Shown here in pieces: positions 29,235 to 50,520 of a stretch of DNA of 64,000 nt. The stretch's first letter is position 1. Each line of letters starts with the position of its first letter. The notes beneath the pieces are model-generated. The model did not search any database. It saw only the letters and a program-made list of their open reading frames with translations, and was not told the origin of the DNA. This stretch comes from an uncultured Anaerolineales bacterium (GTDB taxonomy: Bacteria > Chloroflexota > Anaerolineae > Anaerolineales > RBG-16-64-43), in NCBI GenBank assembly GCA_964353865.1, contig CAYGXJ010000040.1:36329-100328 (forward strand), written 5' to 3'. Position numbers and translations under genes: made by a program.

Positions 29235-29281
29235 GGTCTCTGGGAGCCTGTCCCGCGAAGCGGGAGGGGCGTGGGGGTGCC
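29235..29281. repeat. solo P2 repeat module
   Basis: GGTCTCTGGGAGCCTGTCCCGCGAAGCGGGAGGGGCGTGGGGGTGCC lies in the spacer between the ABC operon start and the island. Confidence 0.7.
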
Positions 29282-30217: not shown

Positions 30218-30219
30218 GC

Positions 30220-30429
30220 ATGCCAACCCATAGAGATGTCCAGAGGATCGTCAAGGCGCGCCATGGCTTCCAACCGAAGCCATGCTGGATCGCTGATGTA
30301 AAGGAAATGTCCGGGCTACCAGTTCGACGTGCATGGAATCGGCAAGGCCGGACTCGCAAGAACCCTTGCCCGGGGACAAAGATCGAGGCCATCCAGCAGG
30401 CGATGAAAGAGCTCGGGATGATCTCCTAG
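30220..30429 (+). CDS. small basic hypothetical protein (69 aa)
   Basis: It starts 2 nt after the Mrr-cat stop and ends 24 nt before the next gene. It is rich in R/K, with the segments KPCWIADVKE and RKNPCPG. No family call. Confidence 0.5.
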   Translation: MPTHRDVQRIVKARHGFQPKPCWIADVKEMSGLPVRRAWNRQGRTRKNPCPGTKIEAIQQAMKELGMIS

Positions 30430-30453
30430 GTCAGCGGGCAGAGAAACGCTGGG

Positions 30454-31677: not shown

Positions 31678-33526
31678 GCCAAACGACCGCCGTCACTTGC
31701 TGGACAGCTTGAGACCCCCAGAGGGGTACGTGCTCACGCATGCGCTGGGCACAACCTACTCGCTTGACCTCCTTAGCCTCCTTACCGTGCCGTTGGCATT
31801 CTCCCTCTTCGACTGGGAAGCACAGGACGGGAGCCAGACGAAGGATCCGCTGGCTGTGCTCGAGGCCTTGCGCAGGCATGCCGAGCATATCTTGATCTTC
31901 TGCCAGGCCGGCGCGATCTACGTTCCCGATAACGCGCCGCTACTAATTGCGAGCCTTGAGCCCTCGGTTGTCGAGGTGCGAGCGACCCGCGATGCGGGAG
32001 TCTTCCACCCCAAAATATGGTTCCTGCGCTTCGCCTCTTCCTCCGGACCGATCCTGTACCGGCTCATTTGTGCCAGCCGCAACCTGACATTCGATCGCAG
32101 CTGGGATACCGTCCTGGTGCTGGAGGGGGAGCTCGAGGAGCGGCAGGTCGGGTTCGGGGCGAATCGACCGCTGGCGGACTTCATCCAGGCCTTGCCAGCG
32201 CTGGCGCCGCACGGGGTTCCGGCAACACGTCTTGAGATTGTCCAGAGGATGCAGCGCGAGATCAGGAAGGTGCGCTTCGTTCCTCCCGAAGATTTCGACG
32301 AGGTCACCTTCTGCCCCCTCGGGATCCACGGGCATCGGAGCTGGCCCTTGCCCGAGACGATACGGAAGCTCCTAGTTGTCTCCCCGTTTCTGAGTGTCGA
32401 TTTGCTCCAGCGGCTTGCTGGAAGTGCCCAAGAGGCTGTGCTTGTCTCGAGGTTGGAGGCGCTGCAAGCACTCAGCCGAAAGCAGTTTGGCGGTTTCTCC
32501 CACCTCTACACCCTGGCGGCGGAAGCGGACCCCGAGCCAGAAGCCGAGGTTGCGGCAGAGCCGCTCCCCGAGACGGCGACTGCCGGCCTGCATGCCAAGC
32601 TGTATGTTGCCGATCTCGGATGGGACTCAAAGGTGTGGACCGGGTCGGCCAACGCGACGACGGCTGCCTTTCGGGACAATGTCGAGTTTCTGGTGGAACT
32701 CACGGGCAAGCGCTCGGTTTGCGGTGTGGACAGCCTGCTCGAGCCTGCGTCGGGGAGGATGAGGCTTGCTGATCTACTCGAGAAGTTCGTGCCGGAGAAG
32801 GATGCGCTCCCTGTGGATCCGGTCCAGGTGGCCATGGAGCAGGGTATCGAGCAGATGAAGAGGCGCATTGTCGATGCGCGGATTCGAGCACACGTTGTTC
32901 CAAGCAGAGCCGAGGACGCGTACACAGTCGTCCTCCACGGCAAATCCGGCGCCGACAGGCTTGCCACGGATTCAGAGCTGGATGTCAAGGTCCACTGCTG
33001 GCCTATCATGCAACAAGAGGAGAGCGCGGCCGCGATCGAGCGACTTGGCGGCGAGGTGGCGTCCTTTGCGAGCCTCTCGTTTCCAGGATTGACTTCCTTC
33101 TTTGCCTTCCGCGTGGACATAGCCCGGGCAGGCAAGAAGCTGTCGTCCCGATTCGTGCTGAATCTACCGCTGGTCGGCGAGCCCGAGGACCGTCAAGAGC
33201 GACTCTTGCGTCACCTACTTCAGGACCGCAACCAGGTCCTGCGGCTGCTGCTCCTGATCTTGTCTGATGTCGACGGCGCTGAACTCGGCCAAGCTGAGGT
33301 GAGGCGGCTCTTGGCGGATACCGGGCCGAGTGTGAGATTCCCGTATTCGGGCGCTCTCCTGGAGCCTCTTCTGCGCGCGCTTGCCCGGGACCCCGAGAAG
33401 CTGGATGAGGTTGCGCACCTCGTCGACGATCTGGAACGCACAGCGGAGGGCCAGGCGCTGCTGCCCGAAGGCTTTCACCGCGTTTGGGATCCGATCTGGG
33501 CGACGAGGGGGGCCAAGCGAGTGTGA
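31634..33526 (+). CDS. phospholipase-D-family (two HKD motifs) putative nuclease
   Basis: HKD-1 is GVFHPKIWFLRF...ASRNLTFD (His codon 32006). HKD-2 is GLHAKLYVADLGWDSKVWTGSANAT (His codon 32591). About 300 aa of C-terminal sequence have no recognisable motif. The gene overlaps its upstream neighbour (ATG 31634, or GTG 31670). Confidence 0.8.
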   Translation: MTSIRECHRTAEVLEPNDRRHLLDSLRPPEGYVLTHALGTTYSLDLLSLLTVPLAFSLFDWEAQDGSQTKDPLAVLEALRRHAEHILIFCQAGAIYVPDNAPLLIASLEPSVVEVRATRDAGVFHPKIWFLRFASSSGPILYRLICASRNLTFDRSWDTVLVLEGELEERQVGFGANRPLADFIQALPALAPHGVPATRLEIVQRMQREIRKVRFVPPEDFDEVTFCPLGIHGHRSWPLPETIRKLLVVSPFLSVDLLQRLAGSAQEAVLVSRLEALQALSRKQFGGFSHLYTLAAEADPEPEAEVAAEPLPETATAGLHAKLYVADLGWDSKVWTGSANATTAAFRDNVEFLVELTGKRSVCGVDSLLEPASGRMRLADLLEKFVPEKDALPVDPVQVAMEQGIEQMKRRIVDARIRAHVVPSRAEDAYTVVLHGKSGADRLATDSELDVKVHCWPIMQQEESAAAIERLGGEVASFASLSFPGLTSFFAFRVDIARAGKKLSSRFVLNLPLVGEPEDRQERLLRHLLQDRNQVLRLLLLILSDVDGAELGQAEVRRLLADTGPSVRFPYSGALLEPLLRALARDPEKLDEVAHLVDDLERTAEGQALLPEGFHRVWDPIWATRGAKRV

Positions 33527-36500
33527 ATCGCGTCGCCGAGCGACCCGATGTGGCGAGGATCGAGAGCGGGCTGAAGGATTTTCAGCGTGCAACGGTTGAC
33601 TATGTGTTCCGCCGCCTGTACACCGACCCGCGGCCCACGCGACGGTTCTTGATCGCGGATGAGGTAGGCCTTGGGAAAACCCTCGTGGCTCGGGGCGTAA
33701 TCGCTCGGGCGATCGACCACCTCTGGGATCTCGTGGACCGGATCGATATCGTCTACATCTGCTCGAACGCCGACATCGCCCGCCAGAACATCAACCGCCT
33801 CAACGTGACAGGCCAGGAGGGGTTCGCCCTGGCCTCCCGCATAACGCTCCTCCCCCTCGAGTATCACGAACTCGATCAGAGGAGACTCAACTTCATCTCC
33901 TTCACCCCGGGAACGTCGTTCGAACTCAGGTCCAGCATGGGGATGGGCACAGAACGCGCGCTTCTGTACCGGCTGCTGGAGGCCGGCTGGGGTCTCAAGG
34001 GAAACACTCCCCTGAATGTCCTGCGCGGCAATATGGGCTCGGAGAACTTCCGGTGGCGGGTGAAGGAGTCTCGCGAGTGGCAGATCGATGCCCAGCTGGC
34101 GGAGGCGTTCCTTGGTGCACTTGAGAAGCGGATCGTGGAGCAGCAGTCCCGAGGCGAGCAGGATCTACGGGCTCGGTTGGAGGACCTCTGCAAGGCCTTT
34201 GCTCGCTCAGACAGCCGAGTGACCGAAGAGGCATGGTGGGAGCGGACCGCCTGGGTGGGCGAGGTGCGGTCGCTGCTCGCGCAGACCTGTCTCAGCCAGC
34301 TCCAGCCGGACCTGATCATACTAGACGAGTTCCAACGGTTCAAGAACCTGCTGATGGGCGAGGACGCGGCGAGCCAACTGGCGCATGAACTCTTCAAGTA
34401 TGCTGACGCCCAGACGGCGGCACGTGTTCTCCTCCTCTCAGCCACGCCCTACAAGATGTACACGCTTGCACAAGAAGCAGGGGAAGACCACTATCGCGAT
34501 TTCCTTGAGACGGCTCGCTTTCTCCAAGACGATAAGGAAGCCACGATCCGTCTGGAAGGCTTGTTGGAGTCCTACAGGTCGGCAATCCTCCGAGCAGGCG
34601 AGCCAATCGGCGAGGATGTCGAGGGCGTGCGAGGGCAACTGGAGGATTGCCTACGGGTGGTCATGGCACGCACCGAGCGGCTGGCCTCAACATCGGATCG
34701 CAGCGGGATGCTGACCGAAATTGAGTCAAACCCGGAGCTGGCGCCGGAGGACATTCTCTCCTACCTGGCCCTCGAGGACCTGTCTGGCGACCTCCACGAC
34801 AGGAACTCGCTGGAGTTCTGGAAGTCAGCCTCCTACCTCCTCAACTTCATGGAGGACTACCAACTTAAGCGATCCTTCCGGGATGCCCTCAAGGATCCGG
34901 CGCGTGGAGGGTCCATTGGAGAAAAGCTTGCCTCTTGGCCTCAGCTCCTCCTTCCGTGGCGCTGGAGGGTCGAGAAGTACCGGCCTGTGGCCCCGAGCAA
35001 TCCGCGACTGAGGGCGCTGCAATCTGAGACACTGGATATGGATGCCTGGAAGCTGCTCTGGCTTCCCCCCTCGCTGCCTTACTACAAGCTGGAGGGGGCG
35101 TATGCAGAGCCGCGACTGGCGGGGTTCTCCAAGCGGCTGGTCTTTTCTTCCTGGAAGGTAGTCCCCCGGGTCGTAGCGTCTTTGCTGAGCTACGAAGCCG
35201 AGAGGCGGATGATCACCTCGTACGAGCCGAAAGCCCTGAACACGCCGGAGGAGCGGGAGAAGAGGCGTCCTCTGCTGCGTTTTGCCCGGTCCGAAGGCAG
35301 GCTGACCGGGCTCGCCCTTTTTAGTTTGATCTACCCCTGTGTGGTCTTGGCTCGCGGCTTCGACCCGTTGGGCTATCCAGGCAACTGCACAGGAGAGGAT
35401 CGGCTTCCATCAGTGAAGGAACTGTTGGGGGTCATCCAGCCGCAAATCGCGGAGCTTGTCACGTCCAAATTGTCCGGCTTGGCGACCACCAGGGCCGTGG
35501 ACGAGCGCTGGTATTGGCTCGCGCCAATCCTGTTGGATCTGGAAACGGAAGCGCACCAAGCTAAGGATTGGTGGCAACAGGAGGGCTTGCCAACGGATTG
35601 GGCGTCCCAACAAGAGGATCTGAATGACGATGAGGGCACCTCGGCGTGGGCCGATCATGTCGCGCAGGTTCGGGACCTAGTGCAAGAGTGGCGTCGCGGT
35701 GAACTACAGCTTGGGGCGATTCCCGAAGATCTGGGTGCCCTCATGGCGCAGCTCGCGGTGGCGGCTCCTGGTGTGGTGATGCTGAGGTCGCTCTCCCGCA
35801 TATCCGATGGAAAGGCAGCTCAATCCAGCTTGAGTATCCGAAACGCATCCGCGCGGACAGCCCGGGCCTTCCTGAGTCTGTTCAACCTCCCCGAAGCCAC
35901 TTCCCTGGTGCGTGGCGTGAACGCCGAAGAACCCTTCTGGCGGCGAGTGCTTGAACACTGCGTGTCTGGCGGACTCCAGCCGGTGATGGACGAGTACGTC
36001 CACGGCCTGAAGGAGTCGCTTGGTTTTGTCGGGAGCGTGTCAGAGGCTGCGGCCTCGGAAGTGGCGGACGCCGTTCGATACGCTCTGGGGCTGCGCACAT
36101 CGACGCCGGTGATCGACGACATTCGCGTGGGTCCAAGGAGCCACAGGGTCACAATCCACGAACAGCGGATGAGAAACCGCTTTGCCGTGAGGTTTGGAGA
36201 TGAGAAGACGGAGGGGTACGGGCAGCCCACACGATCCGACCAGCTGCGGGCAGCCTTCAATTCCCCCTTCTGGCCGTTTGTCCTGGCCACGACGTCGGTT
36301 GGGCAAGAAGGGTTGGATTTCCACACCTACTGCCACATCGTTGTCCACTGGAACCTGCCCGCCAATCCTGTGGACCTTGAACAACGCGAAGGCAGAGTCC
36401 ACCGCTACAAAGGGCATGCCATCCGCAAGAATCTAGCCGCGAGGTACGGCCTTCGCAGCGTCTTGGGGTTGATGGATAGGAATCGTGATCCATGGGATGT

Positions 36501-36795
36501 CCTCTTTGAGCTCGGCGTGAAGGACCGAGCCAACGGGACTGATATTGTGCCCTTCTGGGTCTATCCAATAGAGGGCGGGGCTCGGATCGAGCGGCACCTC
36601 ATGATGCTGCCGCTTAGTCGCGAGGTGGAGCGGGCAGAGGAGTTGCGGAGATCCTTGGCGATTTACCGGATGGTGTTCGGCCAGCCGCGCCAGGAAGACT
36701 TGGTGAGCTACCTGCTAAGCCGCGTGCCGGAGGAGAACGTCGAGGCTTTGGGCGAACAGCTAAGGATCAACCTTACGCCCCCTCCGACAAAGTGA
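33484..36795 (+). CDS. SNF2-family helicase-related ATPase
   Basis: Motif I LIADEVGLGKT, II LIILDEFQRFKN, III LLLSATPYKMY, putative IV KRLVFSSWKVV, V TTSVGQEGLDF and VI QREGRVHRYKGH. The gene overlaps the PLD gene (ATG 33484, or GTG 33523 in a GTGA overlap with the stop). Confidence 0.85.
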   Translation: MGSDLGDEGGQASVNRVAERPDVARIESGLKDFQRATVDYVFRRLYTDPRPTRRFLIADEVGLGKTLVARGVIARAIDHLWDLVDRIDIVYICSNADIARQNINRLNVTGQEGFALASRITLLPLEYHELDQRRLNFISFTPGTSFELRSSMGMGTERALLYRLLEAGWGLKGNTPLNVLRGNMGSENFRWRVKESREWQIDAQLAEAFLGALEKRIVEQQSRGEQDLRARLEDLCKAFARSDSRVTEEAWWERTAWVGEVRSLLAQTCLSQLQPDLIILDEFQRFKNLLMGEDAASQLAHELFKYADAQTAARVLLLSATPYKMYTLAQEAGEDHYRDFLETARFLQDDKEATIRLEGLLESYRSAILRAGEPIGEDVEGVRGQLEDCLRVVMARTERLASTSDRSGMLTEIESNPELAPEDILSYLALEDLSGDLHDRNSLEFWKSASYLLNFMEDYQLKRSFRDALKDPARGGSIGEKLASWPQLLLPWRWRVEKYRPVAPSNPRLRALQSETLDMDAWKLLWLPPSLPYYKLEGAYAEPRLAGFSKRLVFSSWKVVPRVVASLLSYEAERRMITSYEPKALNTPEEREKRRPLLRFARSEGRLTGLALFSLIYPCVVLARGFDPLGYPGNCTGEDRLPSVKELLGVIQPQIAELVTSKLSGLATTRAVDERWYWLAPILLDLETEAHQAKDWWQQEGLPTDWASQQEDLNDDEGTSAWADHVAQVRDLVQEWRRGELQLGAIPEDLGALMAQLAVAAPGVVMLRSLSRISDGKAAQSSLSIRNASARTARAFLSLFNLPEATSLVRGVNAEEPFWRRVLEHCVSGGLQPVMDEYVHGLKESLGFVGSVSEAAASEVADAVRYALGLRTSTPVIDDIRVGPRSHRVTIHEQRMRNRFAVRFGDEKTEGYGQPTRSDQLRAAFNSPFWPFVLATTSVGQEGLDFHTYCHIVVHWNLPANPVDLEQREGRVHRYKGHAIRKNLAARYGLRSVLGLMDRNRDPWDVLFELGVKDRANGTDIVPFWVYPIEGGARIERHLMMLPLSREVERAEELRRSLAIYRMVFGQPRQEDLVSYLLSRVPEENVEALGEQLRINLTPPPTK

Positions 36796-36946: not shown

Positions 36947-37486
36947 ATGCATACGCCACGCACCCTGCGCCTCAGTCTCTGCCTCCTGTTCGCCGCCATG
37001 CTTGCCTGCAACTTGAAGGGGAACATGCTCTGGAACCTCGCCGGCCCGCAGACACCGGCCGATATCGTCGCAACATACGCGGCGCCGGCCGCGGACGACG
37101 CTGCGGTCGAGGAGTGCCTCGCGCCACCGGAGGCGTACGCGTTCGCCAACGAGAACCTCGACGTCAAGGTCGACGGCCCGAACGCGATCTGCAACGCCAC
37201 ATTTACACTCAAGAACCTCGGGCAGGAGCCACTTTCGGCCGTCGTCCACATCGCCTGGGATAACACGGTCGAGCAGTCGCAGTTCTGGGAAGTCAAGCCT
37301 CTGGGCCGGGGCGTGTCGTGGACCGAGCATGTGAACGAGTCCCACCTGATTCAGAATGCCTACTTGCGCGTGACCCACATGCTCGTGGTTCGCGATGTGC
37401 CTGAGTGCTGGTGGTTGGCCGCGAACGCCGAGCAGCCGCGCAGGGCAACGATTGCTGTCGCCATCGATCCACTCCCATGCCCGTGA
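36947..37486 (+). CDS. lipoprotein, hypothetical (copy A of a duplicated gene)
   Basis: Signal plus lipobox MHTPRTLRLSLCLLFAAMLAC, with GGAGGGG upstream. In my hand alignment, 87 of 122 C-terminal residues are identical to ORF 49733..50203. Confidence 0.6.
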   Translation: MHTPRTLRLSLCLLFAAMLACNLKGNMLWNLAGPQTPADIVATYAAPAADDAAVEECLAPPEAYAFANENLDVKVDGPNAICNATFTLKNLGQEPLSAVVHIAWDNTVEQSQFWEVKPLGRGVSWTEHVNESHLIQNAYLRVTHMLVVRDVPECWWLAANAEQPRRATIAVAIDPLPCP

Positions 37487-37617
37487 GATCCCAGCGCAAG
37501 CCCTGACGCACAATAGACTTCCGGTTGGCGGATCGCCGTGCTCGGGCGACGGCGCGATGGCATCGCTCATTCTGCTCGGGCCACCGGCTGCACGACCGCG
37601 GTCTTCAGAGATTTGAC

Positions 37618-38064
37618 CTACCCGCCCACCAACTCCGGATGGCTCTTTTTGAGCCAAGCCTCGACTGCCTTCGTCAACGCCTTAGCCTCACTGACGAGTT
37701 CATTGGCCTCGGTGTCGGAAATCCCTCCGCCCCGGTCATAAGTGCCGACATTCCGCTTGGTGCGGCAACTCTCGAGGTAGATAGCCAGGCCGGCGGATTC
37801 CTTCCCCATGACGAGCGGTAGCGCCTGGAAAGTGACCCGGTGGTGGCCCGCCCCATGTGTCTGATATCCGGCACACGCGAGCGGGACCGTGGCCAGCGGC
37901 AGGACCGCTTCATATGCAATCAGGAACCGCCGGTCGGGTGAGAGACCCGCAACCGAGGCATCCGTCAAGTCACGCTTTGCGAGCCTTAGTAGATCTCCGA
38001 TTTCCTTGCCGCTTGTCTTGTGTCGCCTGAGTTGTCCCTCGGCCAGCAAGCACTCTAAGCTCAT
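37618..38064 (-). CDS. HEPN-domain toxin (HEPN/MNT type II/VII TA system)
   Basis: 148 aa. The N-terminus LLAEGQLRRHKTSGKEI and the RTKRNVGTYD motif region (Rx4-6H-like position) are typical of HEPN partners of MNT. It lies downstream of and overlapping the MNT gene. Confidence 0.7.
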   Translation of the reverse strand: MSLECLLAEGQLRRHKTSGKEIGDLLRLAKRDLTDASVAGLSPDRRFLIAYEAVLPLATVPLACAGYQTHGAGHHRVTFQALPLVMGKESAGLAIYLESCRTKRNVGTYDRGGGISDTEANELVSEAKALTKAVEAWLKKSHPELVGG

Positions 38065-38656
38065 CGTCGCCCCCTATGAGATAGATCTTGGGTGCCTCCA
38101 GCGTCGCGTGGAGAAAGTGGTTTCCCTCGCGCGCCTTGCGCCGGAACTCGGCCTTGGTCATGAGAACCGGATTGATTTCTCGCCCCAGGCTCTCCCGAAG
38201 AGGGGCGAGCAGCCCGGCCAGCGCTCTCCCGGTCAGCGCCCCAATGACCAGGATGTCGATGTCGCTCGAGGCCGTGTCGGTGCCCTCGGCAATTGAGCCA
38301 AAGATGAAGGCGACCTCGATCTCGCCAGATGCCTGCTGAAGGCTTTCTCTTAGCGCATCGCCCATTCCGACTGTCTTGAGCAGTAGGGACTTGAGTTCGG
38401 GGAAGATCGGCGCTCTGCGATTGGCTTGGTAGTACTTGCGATTGCCCTCCACAGACGACTGCAAGAGCCCGCTCGCCTCCAGGCGCGCCACCTCAACCTG
38501 AACCGCGCGTACTGGCAGGTCGGCTTTGGTCGCAATCTCACGCAAATAGAAGCGGCGATCCGGGTTTAAGAGGAGCAGCTTGAGCACGGCTAGGCGCGCC
38601 TGCGAGGTGAAGAGTGCTTCGGCCAGCGAGCCGGAATGTATACTTTTTTTAGTCAT
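37970..38656 (-). CDS. wHTH-fused minimal nucleotidyltransferase (MNT antitoxin)
   Basis: The N-terminal ArsR-like wHTH reads RLAVLKLLLLNPDRRFYLREIATKADLPVRAVQVEVARLEASGLL. The NTase motif is AFIFGSIAEGTDTASSDIDILVIG. Start moved to ATG 38656 because the ORF-track start 38695 lies in the -35 box. Confidence 0.8.
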   Translation of the reverse strand: MTKKSIHSGSLAEALFTSQARLAVLKLLLLNPDRRFYLREIATKADLPVRAVQVEVARLEASGLLQSSVEGNRKYYQANRRAPIFPELKSLLLKTVGMGDALRESLQQASGEIEVAFIFGSIAEGTDTASSDIDILVIGALTGRALAGLLAPLRESLGREINPVLMTKAEFRRKAREGNHFLHATLEAPKIYLIGGDDELRVLAGRGTTQATQDKRQGNRRSTKARKA

Positions 38657-38666
38657 ATGTATACAT
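38636..38666. promoter_or_regulatory. two ATGTATAC operator-like sites flanking the MNT start codon
   Basis: ATGTATAC at 38636..38643 and ATGTATACAT at 38657..38666 (a 10-bp perfect palindrome) are spaced 21 nt start to start. They are candidate binding sites for the wHTH of the MNT protein. Confidence 0.45.
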
Positions 38667-38695
38667 AATATATACGTTGCAAAGCGGGTTGTCAA
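38667..38695 (-). promoter_or_regulatory. strong sigma70-type promoter of the MNT/HEPN cassette (near-leaderless)
   Basis: The minus strand reads TTGACA, a 17-nt spacer, then TATATT. The -10 element ends 10 nt before ATG 38656, so the leader is only a few nt. The stretch is strikingly AT-rich for this genome. Confidence 0.6.
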
Positions 38696-38715
38696 GCGCA
38701 GGGTGCCGGAAGCCT

Positions 38716-38985
38716 TGCGCCCTCACCCTCTCCCGCTGGGAGAGGGAACCCCTCGGCTTCATGCCGCGTGAGGGACCTGCGTTGGTTAGACAGCCCACTC
38801 GATGTGTCAACCCACCGCCGAGGCTATGACAGAAGTCGCCTGCACTCGCCTTGCATGTCCGCCATTACTCTCCGCCCGCAATGCCCCTCCGCCCCTCCTC
38901 CATATCCGCACCCTCCTCGCCGGCGCATATAGTACGCGCATGCACAAGGCGACCCGCGCCGCTAGGCTGCACTTCACGCAGAAGG
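38716..38985. repeat. non-coding segment R (diverged duplicate of 50262..50520)
   Basis: Shared blocks include CCCTCTCCCG.GGGAGA.GGAACCCCTCGG.TTCA.GCCGC.TGAGGGAC, ATGACAGAAGTC.CCTG, GCATGTCC, CCTCCGCCCCTCCTCC.TATCCG and ATAGTACGCGCATGCACAAG. Confidence 0.75.
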
Positions 38986-38996
38986 CGAGAGGCCGC

Positions 38997-40523
38997 CTAG
39001 GTGGCTTGAAGTATCCGCTTGGCCACCATCTGCGCCCCCACCATCACATTCATCACCCCGCCCTGGCCCTCACTCTGCGCCCCGATGAACCACAAGCCCT
39101 CGATCGGTGTCTTGTGCGCCGGCGCCTTGTTGCCGATCACCGGCGGCACGCCACCGAACGAGTGATGCTCCTGATGGGTGCGGGTGCGGAAATCATCCGG
39201 CGTCAGGATCAGGCGGGTCTTCGTGTGCGCGCGCAGCCCGGGCACGTGGCGCTCCGCCTCGGCGATCAGTTTATCGGCCAGCTCCTCGCGACGCGCGCTC
39301 CACGAACCCTCGGCCAGCGTATCGGGCGCCACGGTGTAGACGGTCACGGCGTGATGCGCGGGCGGCGCCAGCGAGGGCGAGTGCAGCGAAGGCACGTAGA
39401 TCAGGAAGCCCTCCTTGCCCTCATGAAAGTCGCCGGCCCGCAGACGCTTGACCGCCCTTTCCATATCCTCGGTCTTGTAGTAGTAGCACAACGCCGCCGG
39501 CTGGTAGGGGGTCGGGTCGAAGTCGATCCCCAGATGAACCATCAGGACCGATTCCATCAGCCGGTTGCGCTCGATCTGGGCGATCAGTTTGGCGGGCAGA
39601 TGCTCGCGCCCGACCAACCCAAAGAACACCTCGCGCATCCCGCCCGAGGCGAGCACGAGATCGGAGGTCTCGAGGTGATCATTTGCCAGGACCACGCCCG
39701 CTGCCCGGCCGTTCTCGACCGCGATCTTCTTCACGGTGGTCATTGTCAGAAGCCTCCCACCGTGCTGCGTGATGACACCCAGGACGGCGTCGACCATCGC
39801 CTGGCAACCGCCGATCAGGTAGGAGTACGCGGTCTGCGCGCTGCGCGTACCCGGATAGGTGGGGATGCGCTTGTCGAATGCGGTCTCGAGGTGGAGCGAA
39901 GGGACCCCTAGTGCGGGGAACTCGCTCGGCGCGGTGACGAAGTCGGCGACGATACCCAGGAAGATCGTCTTCAGCGTCGGGGACTGGAAGTAGTGATCCA
40001 TGAGCTGATTGCTCGTCCAGTCGGCGACGCCCTTGACGCCCTGGAAGGCGAGCAGCATGCGTAGCTTGAGCCACAGCGCCGAGAGGCCCTCGGCGCTCTC
40101 CGCCTGACGGGTCAGACCCATCAGGCGGATCATCCGATCGTAGAAGCGGTAGTAGCGGCCTAGCGCCGCGGCCTCCGCCGGGAAGAGACGCTTCAGCCGC
40201 TCGCGCCGCCAGTAGGGCCCCTCATACTGCGCCGGTTTCCACAATGCGATACTGCCCAGCGCCAGGCCGCGATCCTCGTGCACCGCCTGGACGCGGTCGC
40301 TGACGCCGAGCTCCTCGAGAATGCGGCGGCCTTTGTCGCCTGGCGCGAAGCCTTCGACCAACAGAGGGCCGAGATCCCAGCCGAAGCCGTCGTGCCGGAC
40401 GGTCGCCGTCACGCCGCCCGGGGTAGAGAACTGCTCGAACACGGTGACCGCATGCCCGGCCTTCGCCAGGTATGCCCCGGCAGTCAACCCGGCCATGCCT
40501 GAGCCGATGATCGTGACCTTCAT
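38997..40523 (-). CDS. NAD(P)/FAD-dependent oxidoreductase (phytoene-desaturase/CrtI-like family)
   Basis: Dinucleotide-binding N-terminus MKVTIIGSGMAGLTAGAYLAKAGHAVTVFEQ and C-terminal GLWFIGAQSEGQGGV. Last gene of the minus-strand cluster. Confidence 0.8.
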   Translation of the reverse strand: MKVTIIGSGMAGLTAGAYLAKAGHAVTVFEQFSTPGGVTATVRHDGFGWDLGPLLVEGFAPGDKGRRILEELGVSDRVQAVHEDRGLALGSIALWKPAQYEGPYWRRERLKRLFPAEAAALGRYYRFYDRMIRLMGLTRQAESAEGLSALWLKLRMLLAFQGVKGVADWTSNQLMDHYFQSPTLKTIFLGIVADFVTAPSEFPALGVPSLHLETAFDKRIPTYPGTRSAQTAYSYLIGGCQAMVDAVLGVITQHGGRLLTMTTVKKIAVENGRAAGVVLANDHLETSDLVLASGGMREVFFGLVGREHLPAKLIAQIERNRLMESVLMVHLGIDFDPTPYQPAALCYYYKTEDMERAVKRLRAGDFHEGKEGFLIYVPSLHSPSLAPPAHHAVTVYTVAPDTLAEGSWSARREELADKLIAEAERHVPGLRAHTKTRLILTPDDFRTRTHQEHHSFGGVPPVIGNKAPAHKTPIEGLWFIGAQSEGQGGVMNVMVGAQMVAKRILQAT

Positions 40524-40570
40524 GGGATCCTCACATCGGGCCGATGCCCGAAACGTGCCTCTGCGACTCG

Positions 40571-41941
40571 CTAAGCTGACTTTCCGGCCAAGCCCTTGCG
40601 CGCCGCGAGCTCCTGCACCAACTCACCATGCGACTTGCGTGTGATCGGATACCAGATCAGGAACGGCAGGCTGATCAGGATGACGGCAGCCGGCACGACG
40701 GCGAAGAACAGCCGGATGCCGAACAGCGCCCGGGCGGTCTGGGCCACGTTCGGGATGTACCCGAACCAGTTCAGCGCCCAGCCACTGACCGCCACGCCCA
40801 GGGCGCTGGTGAACTTCGAGAGAAAGGCCCACAGGCCGTAATAGACGCCTTCGCGTCGTTCGCCGGTGATCTTCTCGTCATACTCCACCACGTCCGGCAG
40901 CATGCTCCACGGGAAGACCCACTGGGCGGAGAATCCCAGCCCGGCCACCGCGGCCACCACGTAGATCAAGGGTGTGGGACCGCCGGGGAGGAAGAAGCCG
41001 GCCATGACGGCCACCGAGGCGATGAACAGCCCCAGCGCGTAGGCCGGGCCCTTGTTGATCCTGTCAGAGACCTTCTTGGCGGGAATGAGGAAGATCCCAA
41101 TCACCAAGAGCATAACCAGGAGCACGAACGAGACCTGGTCGCCCATGCCCAGTTGATACGTGATGAAGTAGGGCACCAGCGCTGTGAGCACGGTGAAGCT
41201 GAAGCTGCTCAGAAACTGGGCGATCATCAGGATGACGAACGGCCGGTTCTTGAAGCACGTCAGCATGGCCTTGAGGGCTGGCAGTTTGGAGGGTTCACCC
41301 ACCATCGTGGGGTCTTCCCTGACTGAGAGGGTCGTGACCAGCGTAGTGATGATGGCGATGGCTCCGAACACGGCGCCGGTGGCGCTCCACGCCTGCTGCA
41401 GGTTGAGGCCGGCCCCGTGGAAGATCCCGGCCAGCATCGTGGTCAGGGCCGCGCCCAGGATGTAGCCGACCACACTGTAGACCATGCGGATCGAGGTCAG
41501 ACTCCCCCGCTCGCTATAGTCGCGCGTGAGCTCGGGCGTCATGGCGTAGTACGAGGTGGAGACCATGGTGTGGAAGGAGTCCAAGAGCCAGAAGCTCCCC
41601 AGGATAGCCAGGAATGCCGCGACGCCGGACAACCCCTTGGGGATCGAGAACATGATCCAGGCCGCGATGCCCAGAGGCACGGCGCCGATCAGCATCCAGA
41701 TCCGCCGACGGCCGAACCGGGATCGCGTTCGATCGGACCAGTAGCCGAACAGCGGATCGTTGAATGCATCCCAGGTGAGCTTGCCGACCATCAGGGCCAG
41801 GCCGGCCAGGGCCGGATTGATGCCGGCCACGTCGGTGTAGTAGAAGAGCAGGAAGAACTGCATGGCGGAGGTGATCAGGGCAATGCCCAGATCGGCCAGG
41901 CCGTAACGCACTTTGATGCCGAGCGTCAGTCGCGGGTTCAT
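40571..41941 (-). CDS. GPH-family (glycoside-pentoside-hexuronide:cation) MFS symporter
   Basis: YGLADLGIALITSAMQFFLLFYYTDVAG...DAFNDPLFGYWSDRTRSRFGRRR are GPH signatures. About 12 TM segments. Confidence 0.8.
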   Translation of the reverse strand: MNPRLTLGIKVRYGLADLGIALITSAMQFFLLFYYTDVAGINPALAGLALMVGKLTWDAFNDPLFGYWSDRTRSRFGRRRIWMLIGAVPLGIAAWIMFSIPKGLSGVAAFLAILGSFWLLDSFHTMVSTSYYAMTPELTRDYSERGSLTSIRMVYSVVGYILGAALTTMLAGIFHGAGLNLQQAWSATGAVFGAIAIITTLVTTLSVREDPTMVGEPSKLPALKAMLTCFKNRPFVILMIAQFLSSFSFTVLTALVPYFITYQLGMGDQVSFVLLVMLLVIGIFLIPAKKVSDRINKGPAYALGLFIASVAVMAGFFLPGGPTPLIYVVAAVAGLGFSAQWVFPWSMLPDVVEYDEKITGERREGVYYGLWAFLSKFTSALGVAVSGWALNWFGYIPNVAQTARALFGIRLFFAVVPAAVILISLPFLIWYPITRKSHGELVQELAARKGLAGKSA

Positions 41942-42098
41942 GGGGGCTCCTTATCGAGGAAGGGTAGAAGTGCCGGGGTCAATAATACAGGCACACGAAA
42001 CGAGGTGCCGTGGATCATGCAGCCCACTCGGGCCGGAGCGTCTTGCGTCCGCGGCGGAATCCAGATGTCAATCACTTGCCCCGGGCCCTGATGCACCT

Positions 42099-43175
42099 TT
42101 AGCCCACATCAGATGTTCTGACCTCCCGCCCAGCGCGGGCTGACTCAAGCGCTGCTAGAGAGATCTGGAGAACAGCCTTGCCCGTCGGGCCGTCGAGCCG
42201 CGGCTGGCCGCCATGCTTCAGCTTCTCGATCAGGTCCACCGTGGCGGCGATGAAGCTGTCGTGCCATTCCACGCCCTGGACGGGGATGGCGGTCGTCTTG
42301 CCGTCCTTGAAGAGCATCAGCTCCGGCAAATCGACGGTCCGCGCCGTATAGCGGTTGATGAACAGGATTCCCTTGTCGCCGACGATCTCGACCCGGTCGT
42401 CATCCGCGTAGTAGGCCGAGTCGATGCGCGTCTCCGGCGTGTGCTCGATATCGAGTACGCCGTAGCAGCGTGGCGCCTGATACTGGAACATGACCACCGC
42501 CGGCGCATCGATGTTGACCCCGGGTGCGACGGGCGTGCCGTCGATCCAGGCGCAGACCCGCGCGACGGGCCCGGCCAGGAAGTAGGCGAGCGAGAAGAGG
42601 TGGTAGCCGTGGTCGAAGACCAGCTCCCCTCCGCCGCATAGCTTCTCGTCGAACCGCCACACCCATGCGGAGAGTGGCACCTCCCAGCCGGTGGTCGACG
42701 TCCCGGTCGAGATGTGCATCCGCACGGCGCGCACTTCGCCGATCTCGCCCGCCTCGATCATCTGACGGGCGCGCACGGCCGGCGCGTAGTAGACGAAGTT
42801 CTCGTAGACTCGCAACACGACGCCCGCCGTCTGGGCGGCGGCGATCATCTGATCGGCCTCGGAGGCCGTGAGTGCCATCGGCTTCTGGACCGAGACGTGC
42901 TTCCCGGCCTGGCAAGCGGCTACCGTCATCGGGCAGTGCAGGTGGTGCGGGGTCAAGAGCTCGACAAGATCGATCTCTTTGTCGTTCAGCACCTGCTCGA
43001 AGTCGGTGTAGAACTTCTTGACCCCCCAGGCCGAAGCCTTCGCCTGAGCACGCTCGCCATCGGTATCGCACACCGCCACGATGCGGGCATCGTCACGACC
43101 ACAGTAGCCAAGCTGGTGCAGGTCGCTGATGCGCCCGCATCCGACGAGGGCGGCTCGAATCGTCTCCATGGTCAA
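42099..43175 (-). CDS. Gfo/Idh/MocA family oxidoreductase
   Basis: The N-terminal Rossmann segment reads IRAALVGCGRISDLH...DLVELLTPHHLH...GKHVSVQKPMA. Confidence 0.85.
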   Translation of the reverse strand: MTMETIRAALVGCGRISDLHQLGYCGRDDARIVAVCDTDGERAQAKASAWGVKKFYTDFEQVLNDKEIDLVELLTPHHLHCPMTVAACQAGKHVSVQKPMALTASEADQMIAAAQTAGVVLRVYENFVYYAPAVRARQMIEAGEIGEVRAVRMHISTGTSTTGWEVPLSAWVWRFDEKLCGGGELVFDHGYHLFSLAYFLAGPVARVCAWIDGTPVAPGVNIDAPAVVMFQYQAPRCYGVLDIEHTPETRIDSAYYADDDRVEIVGDKGILFINRYTARTVDLPELMLFKDGKTTAIPVQGVEWHDSFIAATVDLIEKLKHGGQPRLDGPTGKAVLQISLAALESARAGREVRTSDVG

Positions 43176-43204
43176 CCCTTCTTCTTCTCCATTGAAAGCC
43201 GGGA

Positions 43205-44569
43205 CTACTTGGCGCCCGTCTGCGACTCACTCGCCTCGAGCTTGGCGCGCACCGCGGCGTGTGACTTGCGCGTGATCGGATAGCGGATGAGGAGCGGCAG
43301 CGAAAGGAAGATGCATACCGCCGGGATCAGCCCGAAGAAGGCACGGATGCCGAGCAGCGCCTGCGGCGTCTGCTCCACATTGGGAACATAACCCGAGCCG
43401 GTCAGGATCCAGCCCACGGCGGCCAGCGCGAAGGCCTCCGAGACCTTGGTCGCCAGCCCCCACACGCCGTAGTACACGCCGCTGCGCTGCTGCCCGGTCT
43501 CGGCGCGATCGAAATCGGCCACGTCGGCCACCATCGACCAGGGGAAGATCCACTGCGCGGCGAGCCCGAATCCGCCCAACAGGGCAACCAGGTAGACCAG
43601 CGGGGTCTCTCGGTGCGGCAGGAAGAATGTGATGGCGAACGCCAGCGCTCCAATGGCCATGCCCAGCGCGTACGCCGGTCCCTTGTCCATCTTCTGCCCG
43701 AGCCATTTCCAGAAGGGGATTGAGGCCGTAACGCAAATCAGCATCAGGCCCATCACCAGCGCGGTTTGCTCCTTCATCAGGAGTTGGTACTCGATGTAGT
43801 AGGCCATCAGCGTCTTGACGAAGGCGAAGGCAATGTTCATCACAAGATAGGTCCCACACAGCCAGAGGAACGGCTTGTTGCGCATGGCAAGGGCGAAGGA
43901 TCGGAGGGGCGAGGCCTCAGAGGGAGCCACGGCCGCGACGCCGCGCTCGCGGATGCCGGCGACGGAGATCAGCAGCACGAGCGCCGCCAGGGCGCCATAG
44001 GCGATACCGATGAACGCGAAGCCGGTGCGCTGCAAGGCGAACAGGCCCACGATGGCGGGCGTCAGCGCCGCCCCCACCAGGTAGGCCGGGACGGCCAGCG
44101 CCATCCGGTAGGAGATCAGGGCCGAGCGCTCATCGTAGTCGTCGGTCAGTTCCGAGGTGAGCGCGTAGTAGGGGACATTGGTGATCGTCCACAGCGTGTC
44201 GAACAGCATGAAGGTCAGCGCAATCCAGATGAAGGTGGAGATCCGCTCTGCGGGAGGGACGTACCAGAGCAGGGCGATGGAGATGCCGAGCGGGATGGCG
44301 CCGAAGATCATGAAGACCCGGCGCTTGCCGAAGCGCGACTTCGCCTTGTCGGTGAACCAGCCGGCCAAGGGATCGTTGATCGCATCCCAGATCTTGCCAA
44401 TGAGCAGCGCGCTGCCGGCCAGGGCCGGCACGACCAACGCGGCGTCGGTGTAGAACTTCATCAAGAAGAACTGCACGGCCGAGTTGACCGTGGCGTTGCC
44501 CACGTCCCCCATGCCGTAGAAGAACTTGGTGCGCGCCGGCAGCTTGCCAGATTTCGATGCATTGCCCAT
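43205..44569 (-). CDS. GPH-family MFS symporter (second copy)
   Basis: MGNASKSGKLPARTKFFYGMGDVGNATV...DAINDPLAGWFTDKAKSRFGKRR. Start at ATG 44569; the 743-aa ORF 43205..45436 is an artefactual 5' extension across the next gene. Confidence 0.8.
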   Translation of the reverse strand: MGNASKSGKLPARTKFFYGMGDVGNATVNSAVQFFLMKFYTDAALVVPALAGSALLIGKIWDAINDPLAGWFTDKAKSRFGKRRVFMIFGAIPLGISIALLWYVPPAERISTFIWIALTFMLFDTLWTITNVPYYALTSELTDDYDERSALISYRMALAVPAYLVGAALTPAIVGLFALQRTGFAFIGIAYGALAALVLLISVAGIRERGVAAVAPSEASPLRSFALAMRNKPFLWLCGTYLVMNIAFAFVKTLMAYYIEYQLLMKEQTALVMGLMLICVTASIPFWKWLGQKMDKGPAYALGMAIGALAFAITFFLPHRETPLVYLVALLGGFGLAAQWIFPWSMVADVADFDRAETGQQRSGVYYGVWGLATKVSEAFALAAVGWILTGSGYVPNVEQTPQALLGIRAFFGLIPAVCIFLSLPLLIRYPITRKSHAAVRAKLEASESQTGAK

Positions 44570-44589
44570 GGATTCCTCCCCTGTCCCCG

Positions 44590-47001: not shown

Positions 47002-47009
47002 CCGGATCC

Positions 47010-48899: not shown

Positions 48900-48983
48900 G
48901 AGGCGTCCCTCGAATGGACAGTGCCGTGCCGGAATGCGGTTTCCCGAGTTCGCCGGACCCGGTGAAGCCGACGTGAAGCGGGG

Positions 48984-49727: not shown

Positions 49728-49732
49728 GGTCC

Positions 49733-49770
49733 TTGTTGACAAAGATACAACAACATTGCGGCGTATGCAA
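49733..49770 (-). promoter_or_regulatory. candidate IclR promoter with overlapping inverted-repeat operator
   Basis: The minus strand reads TTGCAT (49765..49770), a 17-nt spacer, then TATCTT (49742..49747). The inverted repeat TTGTTG-N9-CAACAA (49733..49753) spans the -10. The -10 element ends 14 nt before the ATG. Confidence 0.45.
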
Positions 49771-50203
49771 CAACCTTGAGTTTTCGGTGGACGCTTATGG
49801 TGGGGCGGGCGCGGACGCCTCGGTCGAGGCGGGCCTCGCTCCGCCGGAGGATTCCGCTTGGTCCTACGATAGCATCGATCGCAAGGTCGACGGACCAAAC
49901 ATGATCTGCAATGGGACCTTCATGCTCAAGAACCTCGGGCAGGAGCCGCTTTCAGCCGTCGTGCACATCGCCTGGGCCAACATAGTGCAGCAATCGCAAT
50001 TCTGGCAGGTCCAGCCGCTGGGGGTAAGTGAAGTATGGACCGACCACGCCAACGAGTCCCACCTGGCACAGAACGCCTACATGCGCGTGACGCACCTGCT
50101 CATGCTTCGCAATGTGCACGAGTGCTGGTGGCTGGCCGCGAACGCGGAGCAGCCGCGGTGGGAGACGATTGCGACCCCCGTCGATCCGCTCCCGTGTCCG
50201 TGA
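49733..50203 (+). pseudogene. copy A' of the duplicated lipoprotein gene, lacking the signal-peptide region (possibly non-functional)
   Basis: Homology to 36947..37486 begins around the lipobox Cys (LACNLKG vs GVCNNLEF). The first codons of the ORF are the IclR promoter/operator DNA. It uses a TTG start and has no hydrophobic h-region. Confidence 0.45.
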
Positions 50204-50261
50204 GGCCCTGCGCAGGGATAGGCGCACAATCGACTCTCTGATTGTGGATCGCCAGGCGCCG

Positions 50262-50520
50262 TGTCCCTCGCTCTGCCCCTCTCCCGTCGGGAGATGGAAC
50301 CCCTCGGTTTCAAGCCGCTTGAGGGACTCTCGTTGGAAAAAACCCCGTACAAAGTGTCGTCGCGTTGCCCTGACCATGACAGAAGTCACCTGAGCGTGTA
50401 ATGCATGTCCCCGATTCCCCTCCGCGGGCAACCTGCCTCCGCCCCTCCTCCTTATCCGGACCCTGCCCACGGGCGCGGATAGTACGCGCATGCACAAGAA
50501 GTCCGCACGCCGCTTGCCTT
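50262..50520. repeat. non-coding segment R' (duplicate of 38716..38985)
   Basis: See the 38716..38985 entry. Here it is contiguous with copy A' (roughly 60-nt spacer) and runs into the ECF promoter. Confidence 0.75.

What the first reader, a model, noticed from the sequence alone, without database searches (positions are those of the whole stretch)
37541..38715. HEPN/MNT cassette is a clean roughly 1.2-kb insertion revealed by comparison with a paralogous locus
At 49733..50520, copy A' of the lipoprotein gene is followed after about 60 nt by non-coding segment R'. At the first copy the same homology runs from gene A through GCGCACAAT.GACT....TTG.GGATCGCC (to about 37540). It then stops and resumes at about 38710 (..GCCTTGCGCCCTCACCCTCTCCCGCTGGGAGAGGG, compared with GCCGTGTCCCTCGCTCTGCCCCTCTCCCGTCGGGAGATGG). 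Everything in between is the HEPN gene, the MNT gene and their own promoter. The TA pair therefore behaves as a self-contained cassette dropped into an intergenic spacer next to the defence operon.
Basis: seen in the sequence. Interest (0 to 1): 0.55.

Follow-up and report, generated by a model that had tools for sequence, protein, structure and literature searches.

The report
Toxin-antitoxin gene pair indel between paralogous loci
A two-gene MNT/HEPN toxin-antitoxin-like module with its own promoter is present at one copy of a duplicated segment and missing from the other, but relatives show it is a long-standing neighbour of a repeated DNA element in a rearrangement-prone defence island, not a freshly dropped mobile cassette.

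Summary
Homology between the two loci runs 37086-37537 ~ 49806-50253 (78%) and 38726-38963 ~ 50277-50514 (76%). About 1,163 nt (37538-38700) are extra at locus A. They hold an 80-nt tail, a HEPN-fold gene, a wHTH-MNT gene and a near-consensus promoter.

The module is self-contained. In four other genomic contexts, homology to it stops at the HEPN stop codon. In three of these it continues past the promoter into R; where the flank differs (L009), it stops 5 nt past the -35. Orthologous empty sites exist (Y-A-spacer-R-Ox on one contig).

The "dropped-in cassette" reading is only partly right:
- The promoter|R junction is ancestral and shared with relatives that have no A gene.
- R is a dispersed repeat that separates modules.
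- Relatives carry A-spacer-R-CAP-HEPN-MNT-P-R-Ox, from which the window state follows by one deletion.
- There is no target duplication, terminal repeat or recombinase.
- The Azaca (ZacABC)/Mrr operon is an independent insertion.

The pair belongs to the known PADLOC candidate family PDC-M05. Its HEPN is SAV_6107-like and lacks Rx4-6H.

Verdict: an ordinary module indel in a defence-island hotspot. The direction of the event is unresolved.

The parts
36947..37486 (+). Gene A: 179-aa predicted lipoprotein (lipobox LAC). It belongs to a tiny family of 12 proteins in 5.8 billion. Its 3' 400 nt are paralogous to A' at 49787-50203.
   Evidence: dN/dS 0.19-0.31 against relatives
37487..37537 (.). 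Spacer s, homologous to 50204-50253 (locus B) and to the spacer after A in L004, L005, L006, L007/8, L026 and L029.
37538..37617 (.). Non-coding 'tail' between the left junction and the HEPN stop. It is shared only with L006, has no detectable homologue elsewhere, and holds a local duplication (37539-37550 / 37573-37584) that L006 lacks.
37618..38064 (-). HEPN-fold protein, 148 aa (PADLOC PDC-M05B; SAV_6107-like HEPN). It has no Rx4-6H. Invariant residues are R101, K103, R104, Y109 and H75; N105 is nearly invariant (>=90%).
   Evidence: dN/dS 0.13-0.23
37970..38656 (-). wHTH (ArsR-like) + minimal nucleotidyltransferase, 228 aa (PADLOC PDC-M05A; Pfam Polbeta/NTP_transf_2; motif FGSIAEG...SDIDIL). 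Its last 95 nt overlap the HEPN gene.
   Evidence: dN/dS 0.13-0.18, tail about 1
38657..38700 (-). Promoter/operator of the module: -35 TTGACA 38695-38690, -10 TATATT 38672-38667. ATGTATAC/ATATATAC repeats lie at 38636, 38657 and 38668. The start codon lies 10 nt after the -10 (near-leaderless).
38701..38725 (.). Linker between the promoter and hairpin H. It is conserved in all cassette-linked R copies (L004, L006, L010, L011) and only weakly alignable to locus B 50254-50276.
38726..38963 (+). R: non-coding dispersed repeat that starts with hairpin CCCTCTCCC-GCT-GGGAGAGGG. It is 76% identical to R' and 84-87% to R copies in relatives. Here it abuts the 3' end of the minus-strand FAD oxidoreductase gene (38997-40523).
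49787..50253 (+). A' (138 aa, no signal peptide, GTG start) plus spacer s'. This is the paralogous 'empty' copy.
50254..50514 (+). Linker' (23 nt) plus R'. R' ends at the -35 of the ECF-transporter promoter (TTGCCT-17-TATAGT, 50514-50542), upstream of the ECF S component gene at 50578-51168.

Best explanation
The extra 1.16 kb is an intact, selected MNT-HEPN two-gene module (PDC-M05 family). It encodes a wHTH-nucleotidyltransferase (probable antitoxin and autoregulator) and a non-canonical HEPN protein (probable toxin or effector), expressed from its own near-consensus, near-leaderless promoter.

The module does not appear to move on its own. It is a long-standing left-hand neighbour of the repeated non-coding element R. 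R copies separate modules in a variable island: [A-spacer], [CAP-HEPN-MNT-P], [Ox-MFS...] and [ECF operon]. Modules are gained, lost and re-joined by homologous recombination between R copies, plus occasional illegitimate joints.

In the window lineage (and in L006), one illegitimate joint fused the A spacer directly to the 3' end of HEPN. Most simply this deleted R-CAP from an arrangement A-s-R-CAP-HEPN-MNT-P-R-Ox, as seen in L028 plus L025. Alternatively, a TA-P-R(-Ox) segment was taken up by recombination anchored in R/Ox, with an illegitimate left end. Compared with the older paralogue A'-s'-R', this looks like a clean insertion.

Shown: the indel, its edges, module integrity and purifying selection, the conserved P|R junction, the empty sites and the longer arrangement. 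Inferred: the recombination mechanism, the direction of the event and the toxin/antitoxin roles.
For: - Indel and edges.
- Family assignment: PADLOC PDC-M05A 5e-65 and PDC-M05B 2e-49; Pfam NTase; AF2 model pLDDT 93.5 with top Foldseek hits AF_0298 HEPN, sacsin HEPN and HepT; 50 of 56 relatives hit PF18726.
- Purifying selection: dN/dS 0.13-0.23 in non-overlapping parts.
- Promoter: 11 of 12 consensus matches, one site found against 0.4 expected.
- The same P|linker|H junction occurs in L004, L006, L010, L011, L025 and L028. L011 reads TA-P-R-ECF operon, with the ECF operon and R' 89.7% and the TA module and R 83% identical to the window.
- Module edges recur at the HEPN stop and 4-5 nt past the -35 in L009, L011, L025 and L010.
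- R is multi-copy, and W_R is closer to R copies of relatives (84-87%) than to W_R' (75%).
- L028 is A-s-Rvar-CAP-dTA-P-R. L025 is Rfrag-CAP-HEPN-MNT-P-R-Ox. L029 is Y-A-s-Rvar-Ox, whose R is a left-Rvar/right-R hybrid.
- Synonymous divergence is 3-4 times higher left of the Ox stop: MNT/HEPN 0.34/0.41 and A 0.44, against Ox 0.11-0.16. This fits recombinational exchange.
- No TSD or TIR, no recombinase nearby, and no match on plasmids, phages or IMG/VR.
Against: - All relatives are short metagenome contigs from several species, so the 'long' ancestor is assembled from two contigs (L028 and L025) that may not be the same lineage.
- The 80-nt tail matches neither CAP, R nor the HEPN 3' flank of the other contexts. 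The deletion route therefore leaves its origin unexplained.
- Empty A-s-R sites are more numerous (locus B, L004, L005, L007/8, L026/27, L029) than filled ones (window, L006). Simple parsimony on A's downstream side therefore favours a gain.
- The A gene tree is mosaic and cannot polarise the event.
- No experiment shows R x R recombination or TA activity.
Confidence: 0.55

Rival explanations
1. After duplication of A-s-R, a self-contained HEPN/MNT cassette was inserted de novo between spacer s and R at locus A in the common ancestor of the window organism and L006. It moved as a unit, either by an unknown cassette-specific mechanism or by a single illegitimate insertion.
For: - Collinear homology on both sides with only TA content in between.
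- Many empty A-s-R sites, including the orthologous Y-A-s-R-Ox locus.
- Locus B has no TA scar, whereas real deletions in relatives leave one.
- Recurrent tight module edges.
- Distant relatives carry the pair in unrelated contexts.
Against: - The right-hand junction (promoter-linker-H-R) is identical in kind to that of six other contexts, including genomes without A. An independent insertion would have had to land at exactly the same base next to R.
- No TSD or TIR and no recombinase.
- No copies on mobile elements.
- The intermediate arrangement with CAP exists.
Confidence: 0.28
2. The duplicated ancestral segment already contained the module (A-s-TA-P-R), and locus B, like other 'empty' sites, lost it by deletion.
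For: TA loss is frequent in relatives (L004, L010, L006 upstream copy, L028). In L011 the module sits directly upstream of the R that leads into the ECF operon, which is the position of locus B.
Against: - Every documented loss leaves the promoter plus 32-180 nt of MNT. Locus B has only 23 nt, alignable to the R linker, with no TA remnant.
- Relatives of locus B (L007, L008) are also empty.
- A precise deletion at the same bases as in L004 would need to occur independently.
- There is no R copy left of the module in the window arrangement to mediate a scarless loss.
Confidence: 0.12
3. The pattern is an artefact, either a chimeric assembly or chance similarity.
For: None beyond the general risk that comes with metagenome-assembled sequence.
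Against: The E-values are 4e-78 and 1e-28. Two independent samples reproduce the A|tail|HEPN junction at 99.8-100%. L006 shares the junction at 79-89% identity.
Confidence: 0.02

Closest known systems
PADLOC candidate defence system PDC-M05 (M05A nucleotidyltransferase + M05B HEPN)
   Same: Both proteins match the family profiles end to end (5e-65 and 2e-49). Gene order and size are the same. The literature describes the family as a TA-like NTase + HEPN pair (PMC12988326).
   Different: Nothing structural. The antiviral role of the family is still unconfirmed (PMC12988326). The Chloroflexi subclade has a 15-30 aa C-terminal MNT extension that overlaps HEPN.
Type VII MntA/HepT (MNT-HEPN) toxin-antitoxin, e.g. 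Shewanella SO_3165/SO_3166 (PDB 5yep, 6m6w)
   Same: MNT lies upstream of HEPN. The MNT has the pol-beta NTase GS...DxD motif. HEPN has the HEPN fold, with HepT among the top structural hits. An invariant Tyr (Y109) lies next to the conserved R/N cluster, where HepT is AMPylated (established knowledge for HepT; an inference here).
   Different: There is no Rx4-6H histidine (R104-N105-x3-Y109). The HEPN is of the SAV_6107-like 'HEPN-M' type, listed as lacking the motif (PMC3710099). The MNT carries an N-terminal ArsR-like wHTH that MntA lacks. The NCBIfam MntA score of 29.8 is far below the cut-off of 60.
Defence-island hotspot turnover by flanking-homology recombination, or homology-facilitated illegitimate recombination
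   Same: Different cargo occupies the interval between the same core flanks in close relatives. Between Y and A there is Mrr+ZacABC in the window, a TA remnant plus R in L006, and nothing in L027/L029; L011 carries GmrSD-like genes between Y and the TA module. Between A and Ox there is TA in the window and nothing in L026/L029; CAP lies next to the TA module in L025 and L028. One junction is homologous and the other illegitimate. Divergence is higher inside the island than in the flank.
   Different: Here the recombination substrate appears to be an internal dispersed repeat (R) rather than only the core genes. This is inferred, not shown.
Integron gene cassettes (which often carry TA pairs)
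   Same: A compact unit with tight edges, found in several contexts.
   Different: There is no attC-like site with R''/R' core (GTTRRRY) at the edges, no integrase and no cassette array. The unit carries its own promoter at the edge that is fixed to R.

Membership tests
MNT-HEPN (type VII, MntA/HepT-like) toxin-antitoxin | Two-gene dyad with the MNT gene 5' of the HEPN gene, co-transcribed | tested here: met
   MNT lies at 38656-37970 and HEPN at 38064-37618 on the minus strand. A single promoter lies upstream of MNT. Co-transcription is inferred.
MNT-HEPN (type VII, MntA/HepT-like) toxin-antitoxin | MNT with pol-beta nucleotidyltransferase fold and GS...DxD catalytic motif | tested here: met
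   Pfam Polbeta 8.8e-08 and NTP_transf_2 1.2e-06, both above their cut-offs. FGSIAEG...SDIDIL is conserved in 10 relatives. The NCBIfam MntA equivalog scores 29.8 against a cut-off of 60.
MNT-HEPN (type VII, MntA/HepT-like) toxin-antitoxin | Partner protein has the HEPN fold | tested here: met
   The AF2 model has pLDDT 93.5 and pTM 0.88. Top Foldseek PDB hits are 2hsb, 3o10 and 6m6w (HEPN domains), probability 0.99-1.0, TM 0.52-0.74, but E-values only 0.04-0.08. 50 of 56 relatives hit PF18726 and 11 hit PF05168.
MNT-HEPN (type VII, MntA/HepT-like) toxin-antitoxin | Rx4-6H RNase motif in HEPN | tested here: not met
   In a 56-sequence alignment the conserved block is C100-R101-x-K103-R104-N105-x3-Y109, with Tyr where His is expected. 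An invariant H75 lies elsewhere. This agrees with 'HEPN-M (SAV_6107): No' in Table 1 of PMC3710099.
MNT-HEPN (type VII, MntA/HepT-like) toxin-antitoxin | HEPN is toxic and is neutralised by MNT-catalysed AMPylation | not testable with these tools
   Needs expression and toxicity assays plus mass spectrometry.
PADLOC PDC-M05 | Adjacent genes matching the M05A and M05B profiles | tested here: met
   PDLC04368 5e-65 (residues 9-201 of the protein against 4-196 of the 201-position profile). PDLC04374 1.9e-49 (1-145 of the protein against 1-145 of the 146-position profile).
PADLOC PDC-M05 | Anti-phage activity | not testable with these tools
   The literature says validation is pending (PMC12988326).
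Autonomous mobile cassette (IS/transposon/integron cassette) | Target-site duplication and/or terminal inverted repeats or attC at the edges | tested here: not met
   The repeat finder and direct reading of the edges found only chance-level 10-18-nt imperfect matches and no flanking direct repeat.
Autonomous mobile cassette (IS/transposon/integron cassette) | Associated transposase, integrase or recombinase | tested here: not met
   Pfam annotation of ORFs from 21.5 to 52 kb gives metabolic, transporter and defence genes only.
Autonomous mobile cassette (IS/transposon/integron cassette) | The same unit at unrelated sites or on mobile elements | tested here: inconclusive
   The unit (HEPN stop to -35) recurs at 83-91% identity with three different HEPN-side neighbours, but on the promoter side it is always next to R/H. 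There was no hit in plasmids, phages or IMG/VR. Distant homologues (34-65% aa) sit in unrelated contexts.

The most novel reading that the evidence does not exclude
The R element, with its 5' hairpin H (GCCCTCACCCT + CCCTCTCCC-nnn-GGGAGAGGG), could be a dedicated recombination or 'docking' site that lets Chloroflexi shuffle self-contained modules (TA pair, CAP, lipoprotein A, catabolic and transporter operons) without a linked recombinase. That would be a repeat-guided cassette system analogous in outcome to integrons. It would explain why module edges recur at the same bases in several genomes.
Probability: 0.1. Interest if true: 0.6.

Novelty: new member of a known kind. Interest (0 to 1): 0.3.

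Why it matters
The finding documents, at near-nucleotide resolution, presence/absence of a candidate defence/TA module (PDC-M05) between paralogous and orthologous sites in an uncultured Chloroflexi lineage. It also shows that an apparent 'clean insertion' seen against a paralogue can be the product of repeat-mediated module shuffling. This is useful as a caution for indel-polarity calls and as a small case study of defence-island turnover. It does not reveal a new kind of system.

Tried and rejected
- Rfam at gathering and at E<=10 on R and R' gave nothing relevant.
- RNAalifold on 7 R copies gave a covariation term of +0.83, so there is no support for a structured RNA or riboswitch. The ECF promoter also lies downstream of R'.
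- TSD/TIR search at the edges found nothing above chance.
- I first thought a 4-nt microhomology caused tied scores in the deletion scan. Direct reading showed it is not an exact repeat.
- The origin of the 80-nt tail was sought with blastn-short against the window and all loci, and with shuffled local alignments to Rvar. Nothing was significant.
- The A-family gene tree was tried as a way to polarise the event. It is mosaic (two sequence types mixed across loci, all dS 0.27-0.81), so I did not use it.
- A genome-contig scan with the A alignment found no relative. The scan with MNT found only distant (<=65% aa) Anaerolineaceae, Chloroflexi and other MAGs with no shared neighbours.
- Plasmid, phage and IMG/VR searches were negative.
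- An integron-cassette reading was rejected: no attC, no integrase.
- dS estimates for the Y gene were discarded because the reading frame of the contig fragments was uncertain.
Full report
**1. Observation**

- Window 37086-37537 matches 49806-50253 (78.1%, E 4e-78).
- Window 38726-38963 matches 50277-50514 (75.7%, E 1e-28).
- The two matches are collinear on the same strand. A whole-window self-comparison shows no other long paralogy.

I then scanned every pair of deletion end-points for the best global fit to locus B and to an external empty site (L004). This places the left edge at 37529-37541 and the right edge at 38699-38705, an indel of about 1,163 nt. The motif 'CGCC GTGC' is shared with other A-downstream spacers, so the left edge could lie as far right as about 37547.

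Two independent metagenome contigs (L001 and L024) reproduce the A|tail|HEPN junction at 100% and 99.8% identity. It is therefore not a mis-assembly.

**2. What lies in the indel**

From left to right the indel contains:
- an 80-nt non-coding tail (37538-37617);
- a 148-aa ORF (37618-38064, minus strand);
- a 228-aa ORF (37970-38656, minus strand);
- a sigma-70-type promoter, TTGACA-17-TATATT (38695-38667). It matches 11 of 12 consensus positions and is the only such site in 1.65 kb (0.4 expected).

The 228-aa protein is an ArsR-like wHTH fused to a minimal nucleotidyltransferase (MNT). It matches Pfam Polbeta and NTP_transf_2 and carries the motif FGSIAEG...SDIDIL.

The 148-aa protein has no Pfam hit of its own. 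Its HEPN assignment rests on four results:
- It matches PADLOC PDC-M05B (2e-49), and its partner matches PDC-M05A (5e-65).
- 50 of 56 relatives hit PF18726 (HEPN_SAV_6107).
- An AlphaFold2 model has pLDDT 93.5.
- The best PDB structural matches are HEPN domains: AF_0298, sacsin and HepT, with TM 0.52-0.74.

The canonical Rx4-6H motif is absent. The conserved block is R101-x-K103-R104-N105-x3-Y109, and an invariant H75 lies elsewhere. This agrees with the published description of SAV_6107-type HEPN (PMC3710099).

Both genes are under purifying selection, with dN/dS 0.13-0.23 outside the overlap. The 31-codon MNT tail that overlaps HEPN has dN/dS about 1 and is probably an unselected read-through.

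PDC-M05 is a known candidate system whose antiviral role is still unvalidated (PMC12988326).

**3. Surroundings**

- Upstream of A lie an Mrr-like endonuclease gene (29531-30217) and ZacA/B/C, the Azaca system (30454-36795).
- Downstream of R lie a minus-strand FAD oxidoreductase gene (Ox) and an MFS transporter gene.
- Locus B reads IclR(-), A'(+), s', R', then the promoter and genes of an ECF transporter.
- R' ends exactly at the ECF -35.
- No transposase or integrase lies within about 15 kb.

**4. Relatives**

The A family is tiny, with 12 proteins found. The contexts I recovered (comparisons) are listed below, in window orientation.

| Locus | Arrangement | Notes |
|---|---|---|
| L029 (single contig); L026/L027 | Y-A-s-Rvar-Ox | Ox 94-96% identical to the window; no TA module and no Mrr/ZacABC. 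This is the orthologous empty site. |
| L004 | CAP(-)-[promoter + 32 nt of MNT]-H...R-A-s-R | Empty downstream of A; a TA remnant lies upstream of A. |
| L006 | Y-[promoter + 125 nt of MNT]-R-A-s-tail-HEPN... | Same left junction as the window (TCGCC\|GTGCTCGGGC); no ZacABC. |
| L003 + L009 | A-DUF3800-CAP(-)-HEPN-MNT-P-H' | Cassette 91% identical; homology ends at 37624 and 38699. |
| L025 | Rfrag-CAP(-)-HEPN-MNT-P-R-Ox | 87% identical over window 37624-39382. |
| L028 | A-s-Rvar-CAP(-)-[MNT 5' 180 nt]-P-H/R | TA mostly deleted. |
| L010 | HEPN 3' remnant-CAP-MNT 5'-P-H-Rfrag-Ox-MFS-R-ECF operon | TA mostly deleted. |
| L011-L014 | Y-GmrSD-like genes-105-aa gene-HEPN-MNT-P-R-ECF operon | ECF operon plus R' 89.7% identical to the window; TA module plus R 83%. 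|
| L005, L007, L008 | A or A' followed by s and a variant R | No TA module. |

Distant homologues (34-65% aa identity; Anaerolineaceae, Chloroflexi and other MAGs) keep the gene pair but share none of the neighbours.

**5. What this says about the 'insertion'**

(a) The module behaves as a unit. Its HEPN-side edge falls within 5 nt of the stop codon in four independent contexts. Its promoter-side edge falls 4-5 nt beyond the -35. L025 and L009 are 94% alike, and they diverge from each other at exactly that point.

(b) The promoter side is never free. The promoter, the 19-nt linker and hairpin H/R are contiguous in the window and in L004, L006, L010, L011, L025 and L028. The right-hand 'junction' of the indel is therefore an old adjacency. 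In L011 it forms the divergent control region between the TA module and the ECF operon.

(c) R is a dispersed repeat, with 2-4 copies per fetched locus. The window's R is closer to R copies of other genomes (84-87%) than to its own R' (75%).

(d) The joint unique to the window and L006 is the left one, s|tail. The tail has no detectable source.

(e) L028 and L025 together show the arrangement A-s-R-CAP-HEPN-MNT-P-R-Ox. Three states follow from it:
- R x R recombination gives the empty state of L029, whose R is indeed a left-variant/right-R hybrid.
- Deletion of R-CAP gives the window state.
- Internal deletions give the promoter-only remnants.

(f) Synonymous divergence is 0.11-0.16 in Ox. It is 0.34-0.41 in the TA genes and 0.44 in A, for relatives that are equally close to the window at Ox. 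The island is therefore exchanged or reshuffled faster than the flank.

(g) No TSD, TIR or recombinase was found, and there is no copy on plasmids, phages or viral contigs.

**6. Polarity**

Evidence favouring a gain at locus A:
- Empty A-s-R sites are numerous. They occur in both paralogue types and at the orthologous locus.
- Locus B has no scar, whereas documented TA losses leave the promoter plus 32-180 nt of MNT.

Evidence against a simple gain:
- The TA-P-R-Ox linkage is shared by the window, L025 and (as a remnant) L010, all of which are 93-96% identical to the window in Ox.
- R-bounded loss would leave no scar.

I conclude that the direction cannot be fixed with the available fragments. 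I rank the explanations as follows:
- repeat-mediated module shuffling with one illegitimate left joint: 0.55;
- a true one-step insertion of the cassette: 0.28;
- loss from locus B: 0.12;
- artefact: 0.02.

**7. Order relative to the defence operon**

L006 carries the same A|tail|HEPN joint. L027 and L029 carry the same Y-A flank. None of them has Mrr or ZacABC. The Azaca/Mrr block is therefore an independent insertion between Y and A, probably a later one. The TA pair was not 'dropped next to' it.

**8. Likely function (inferred)**

The wHTH-MNT probably represses its own promoter through the ATGTATAC/ATATATAC repeats at 38636, 38657 and 38668. By analogy with MntA/HepT, it probably also neutralises the HEPN partner, possibly by nucleotidylating the invariant Y109. 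The HEPN protein lacks the RNase histidine. It may act through a different catalytic set (R101, K103, R104, N105, H75) or without catalysis. None of this is tested here.

**9. Verdict**

The object is a new member of a known family (PDC-M05, an MNT-HEPN pair) in a rearrangement-prone defence island of an uncultured, probably Chloroflexota, bacterium. Interest is modest.

Noticed in passing
window 29531-36795: An Mrr-like restriction endonuclease gene (29531-30217) plus ZacA/ZacB/ZacC (Azaca, 30454-36795) lie between the ABC ATPase gene Y and gene A. Relatives L006, L027 and L029 have Y followed within 0.2-0.8 kb by A, without this block. It is therefore a separate roughly 7.3-kb insertion. L011 carries GmrSD-like genes at the same place.
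   Followed up: partly
window 38726-38963 and 50277-50514; L004, L010, L025, L028: R is a dispersed non-coding repeat of about 240 nt. It begins with GCCCTCACCCT plus the hairpin CCCTCTCCC-nnn-GGGAGAGGG and contains a 20-mer (ATAGTACGCGCATGCACAAG) identical in both window copies. It has no Rfam match and no covariation support. A variant that lacks the hairpin part occurs in L005, L007, L008, L026 and L028. Its function is unknown. It may be a regulatory region of the ECF operon and/or a recombination substrate.
   Followed up: partly
window 38964-50253: An 11.3-kb catabolic-looking cluster lies between the direct repeats R and R'. It holds genes for an FAD oxidoreductase, two MFS_2 transporters, a GFO/IDH/MocA oxidoreductase, split transketolase, a TPP enzyme, IclR and A'. 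L011 has TA-P-R joined directly to the ECF operon. L010 has only Ox-MFS between two R copies.
   Followed up: partly
window 37970-38064: The MNT ORF overlaps the HEPN ORF by 95 nt. The extension is specific to the Chloroflexi subclade; distant relatives stop about 25-30 codons earlier. It evolves with dN/dS about 1, while the HEPN frame is constrained.
   Followed up: yes
window 38630-38700: Three operator-like repeats (ATGTATAC at 38636 and 38657, ATATATAC at 38668) surround the -10 and the start codon. The ATG lies 10 nt after the -10, which suggests a leaderless or near-leaderless mRNA. In the remnant copies (L004, L006, L010) the -35 has changed from TTGACA to TTGGCA.
   Followed up: partly
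L004 1384-1530; L010 9115-9219; L006 761-985; L028 2431-2650: In four relatives the TA reading frames are deleted, but the promoter and the first 32, 32, 125 and 180 nt of MNT remain next to R. L004 and L010 share the same break-point, and there the remnant promoter faces the CAP-domain gene.
   Followed up: partly
window 49787-50203; L008 2434-2851: A' lacks the lipoprotein signal peptide yet shows dN/dS 0.26-0.34, so it is not a plain pseudogene in the window. In L008 it carries a frameshift. The A family shows two sequence types mixed across loci, which suggests gene conversion.
   Followed up: partly
window 37539-37584: A local 34-nt duplication (TGCTCGGGCGAC / TGCTCGGGCCAC) lies in the tail downstream of HEPN. 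It is absent from L006.
   Followed up: no
window 22750-22832~25250-25330, 19489-19526~25196-25234, 23683-23715~54715-54747, 25305-25341~29242-29279: Short (33-85 nt) intergenic repeats at 81-97% identity. They also match sites in L011, L027 and L029. They look like a REP-like family unrelated to R.
   Followed up: no
L003 1452-2300 / L009 307-1155: In one relative the site directly after A's stop codon holds a DUF3800-family gene, followed by CAP and the TA module. This is a third state of the same spot.
   Followed up: partly
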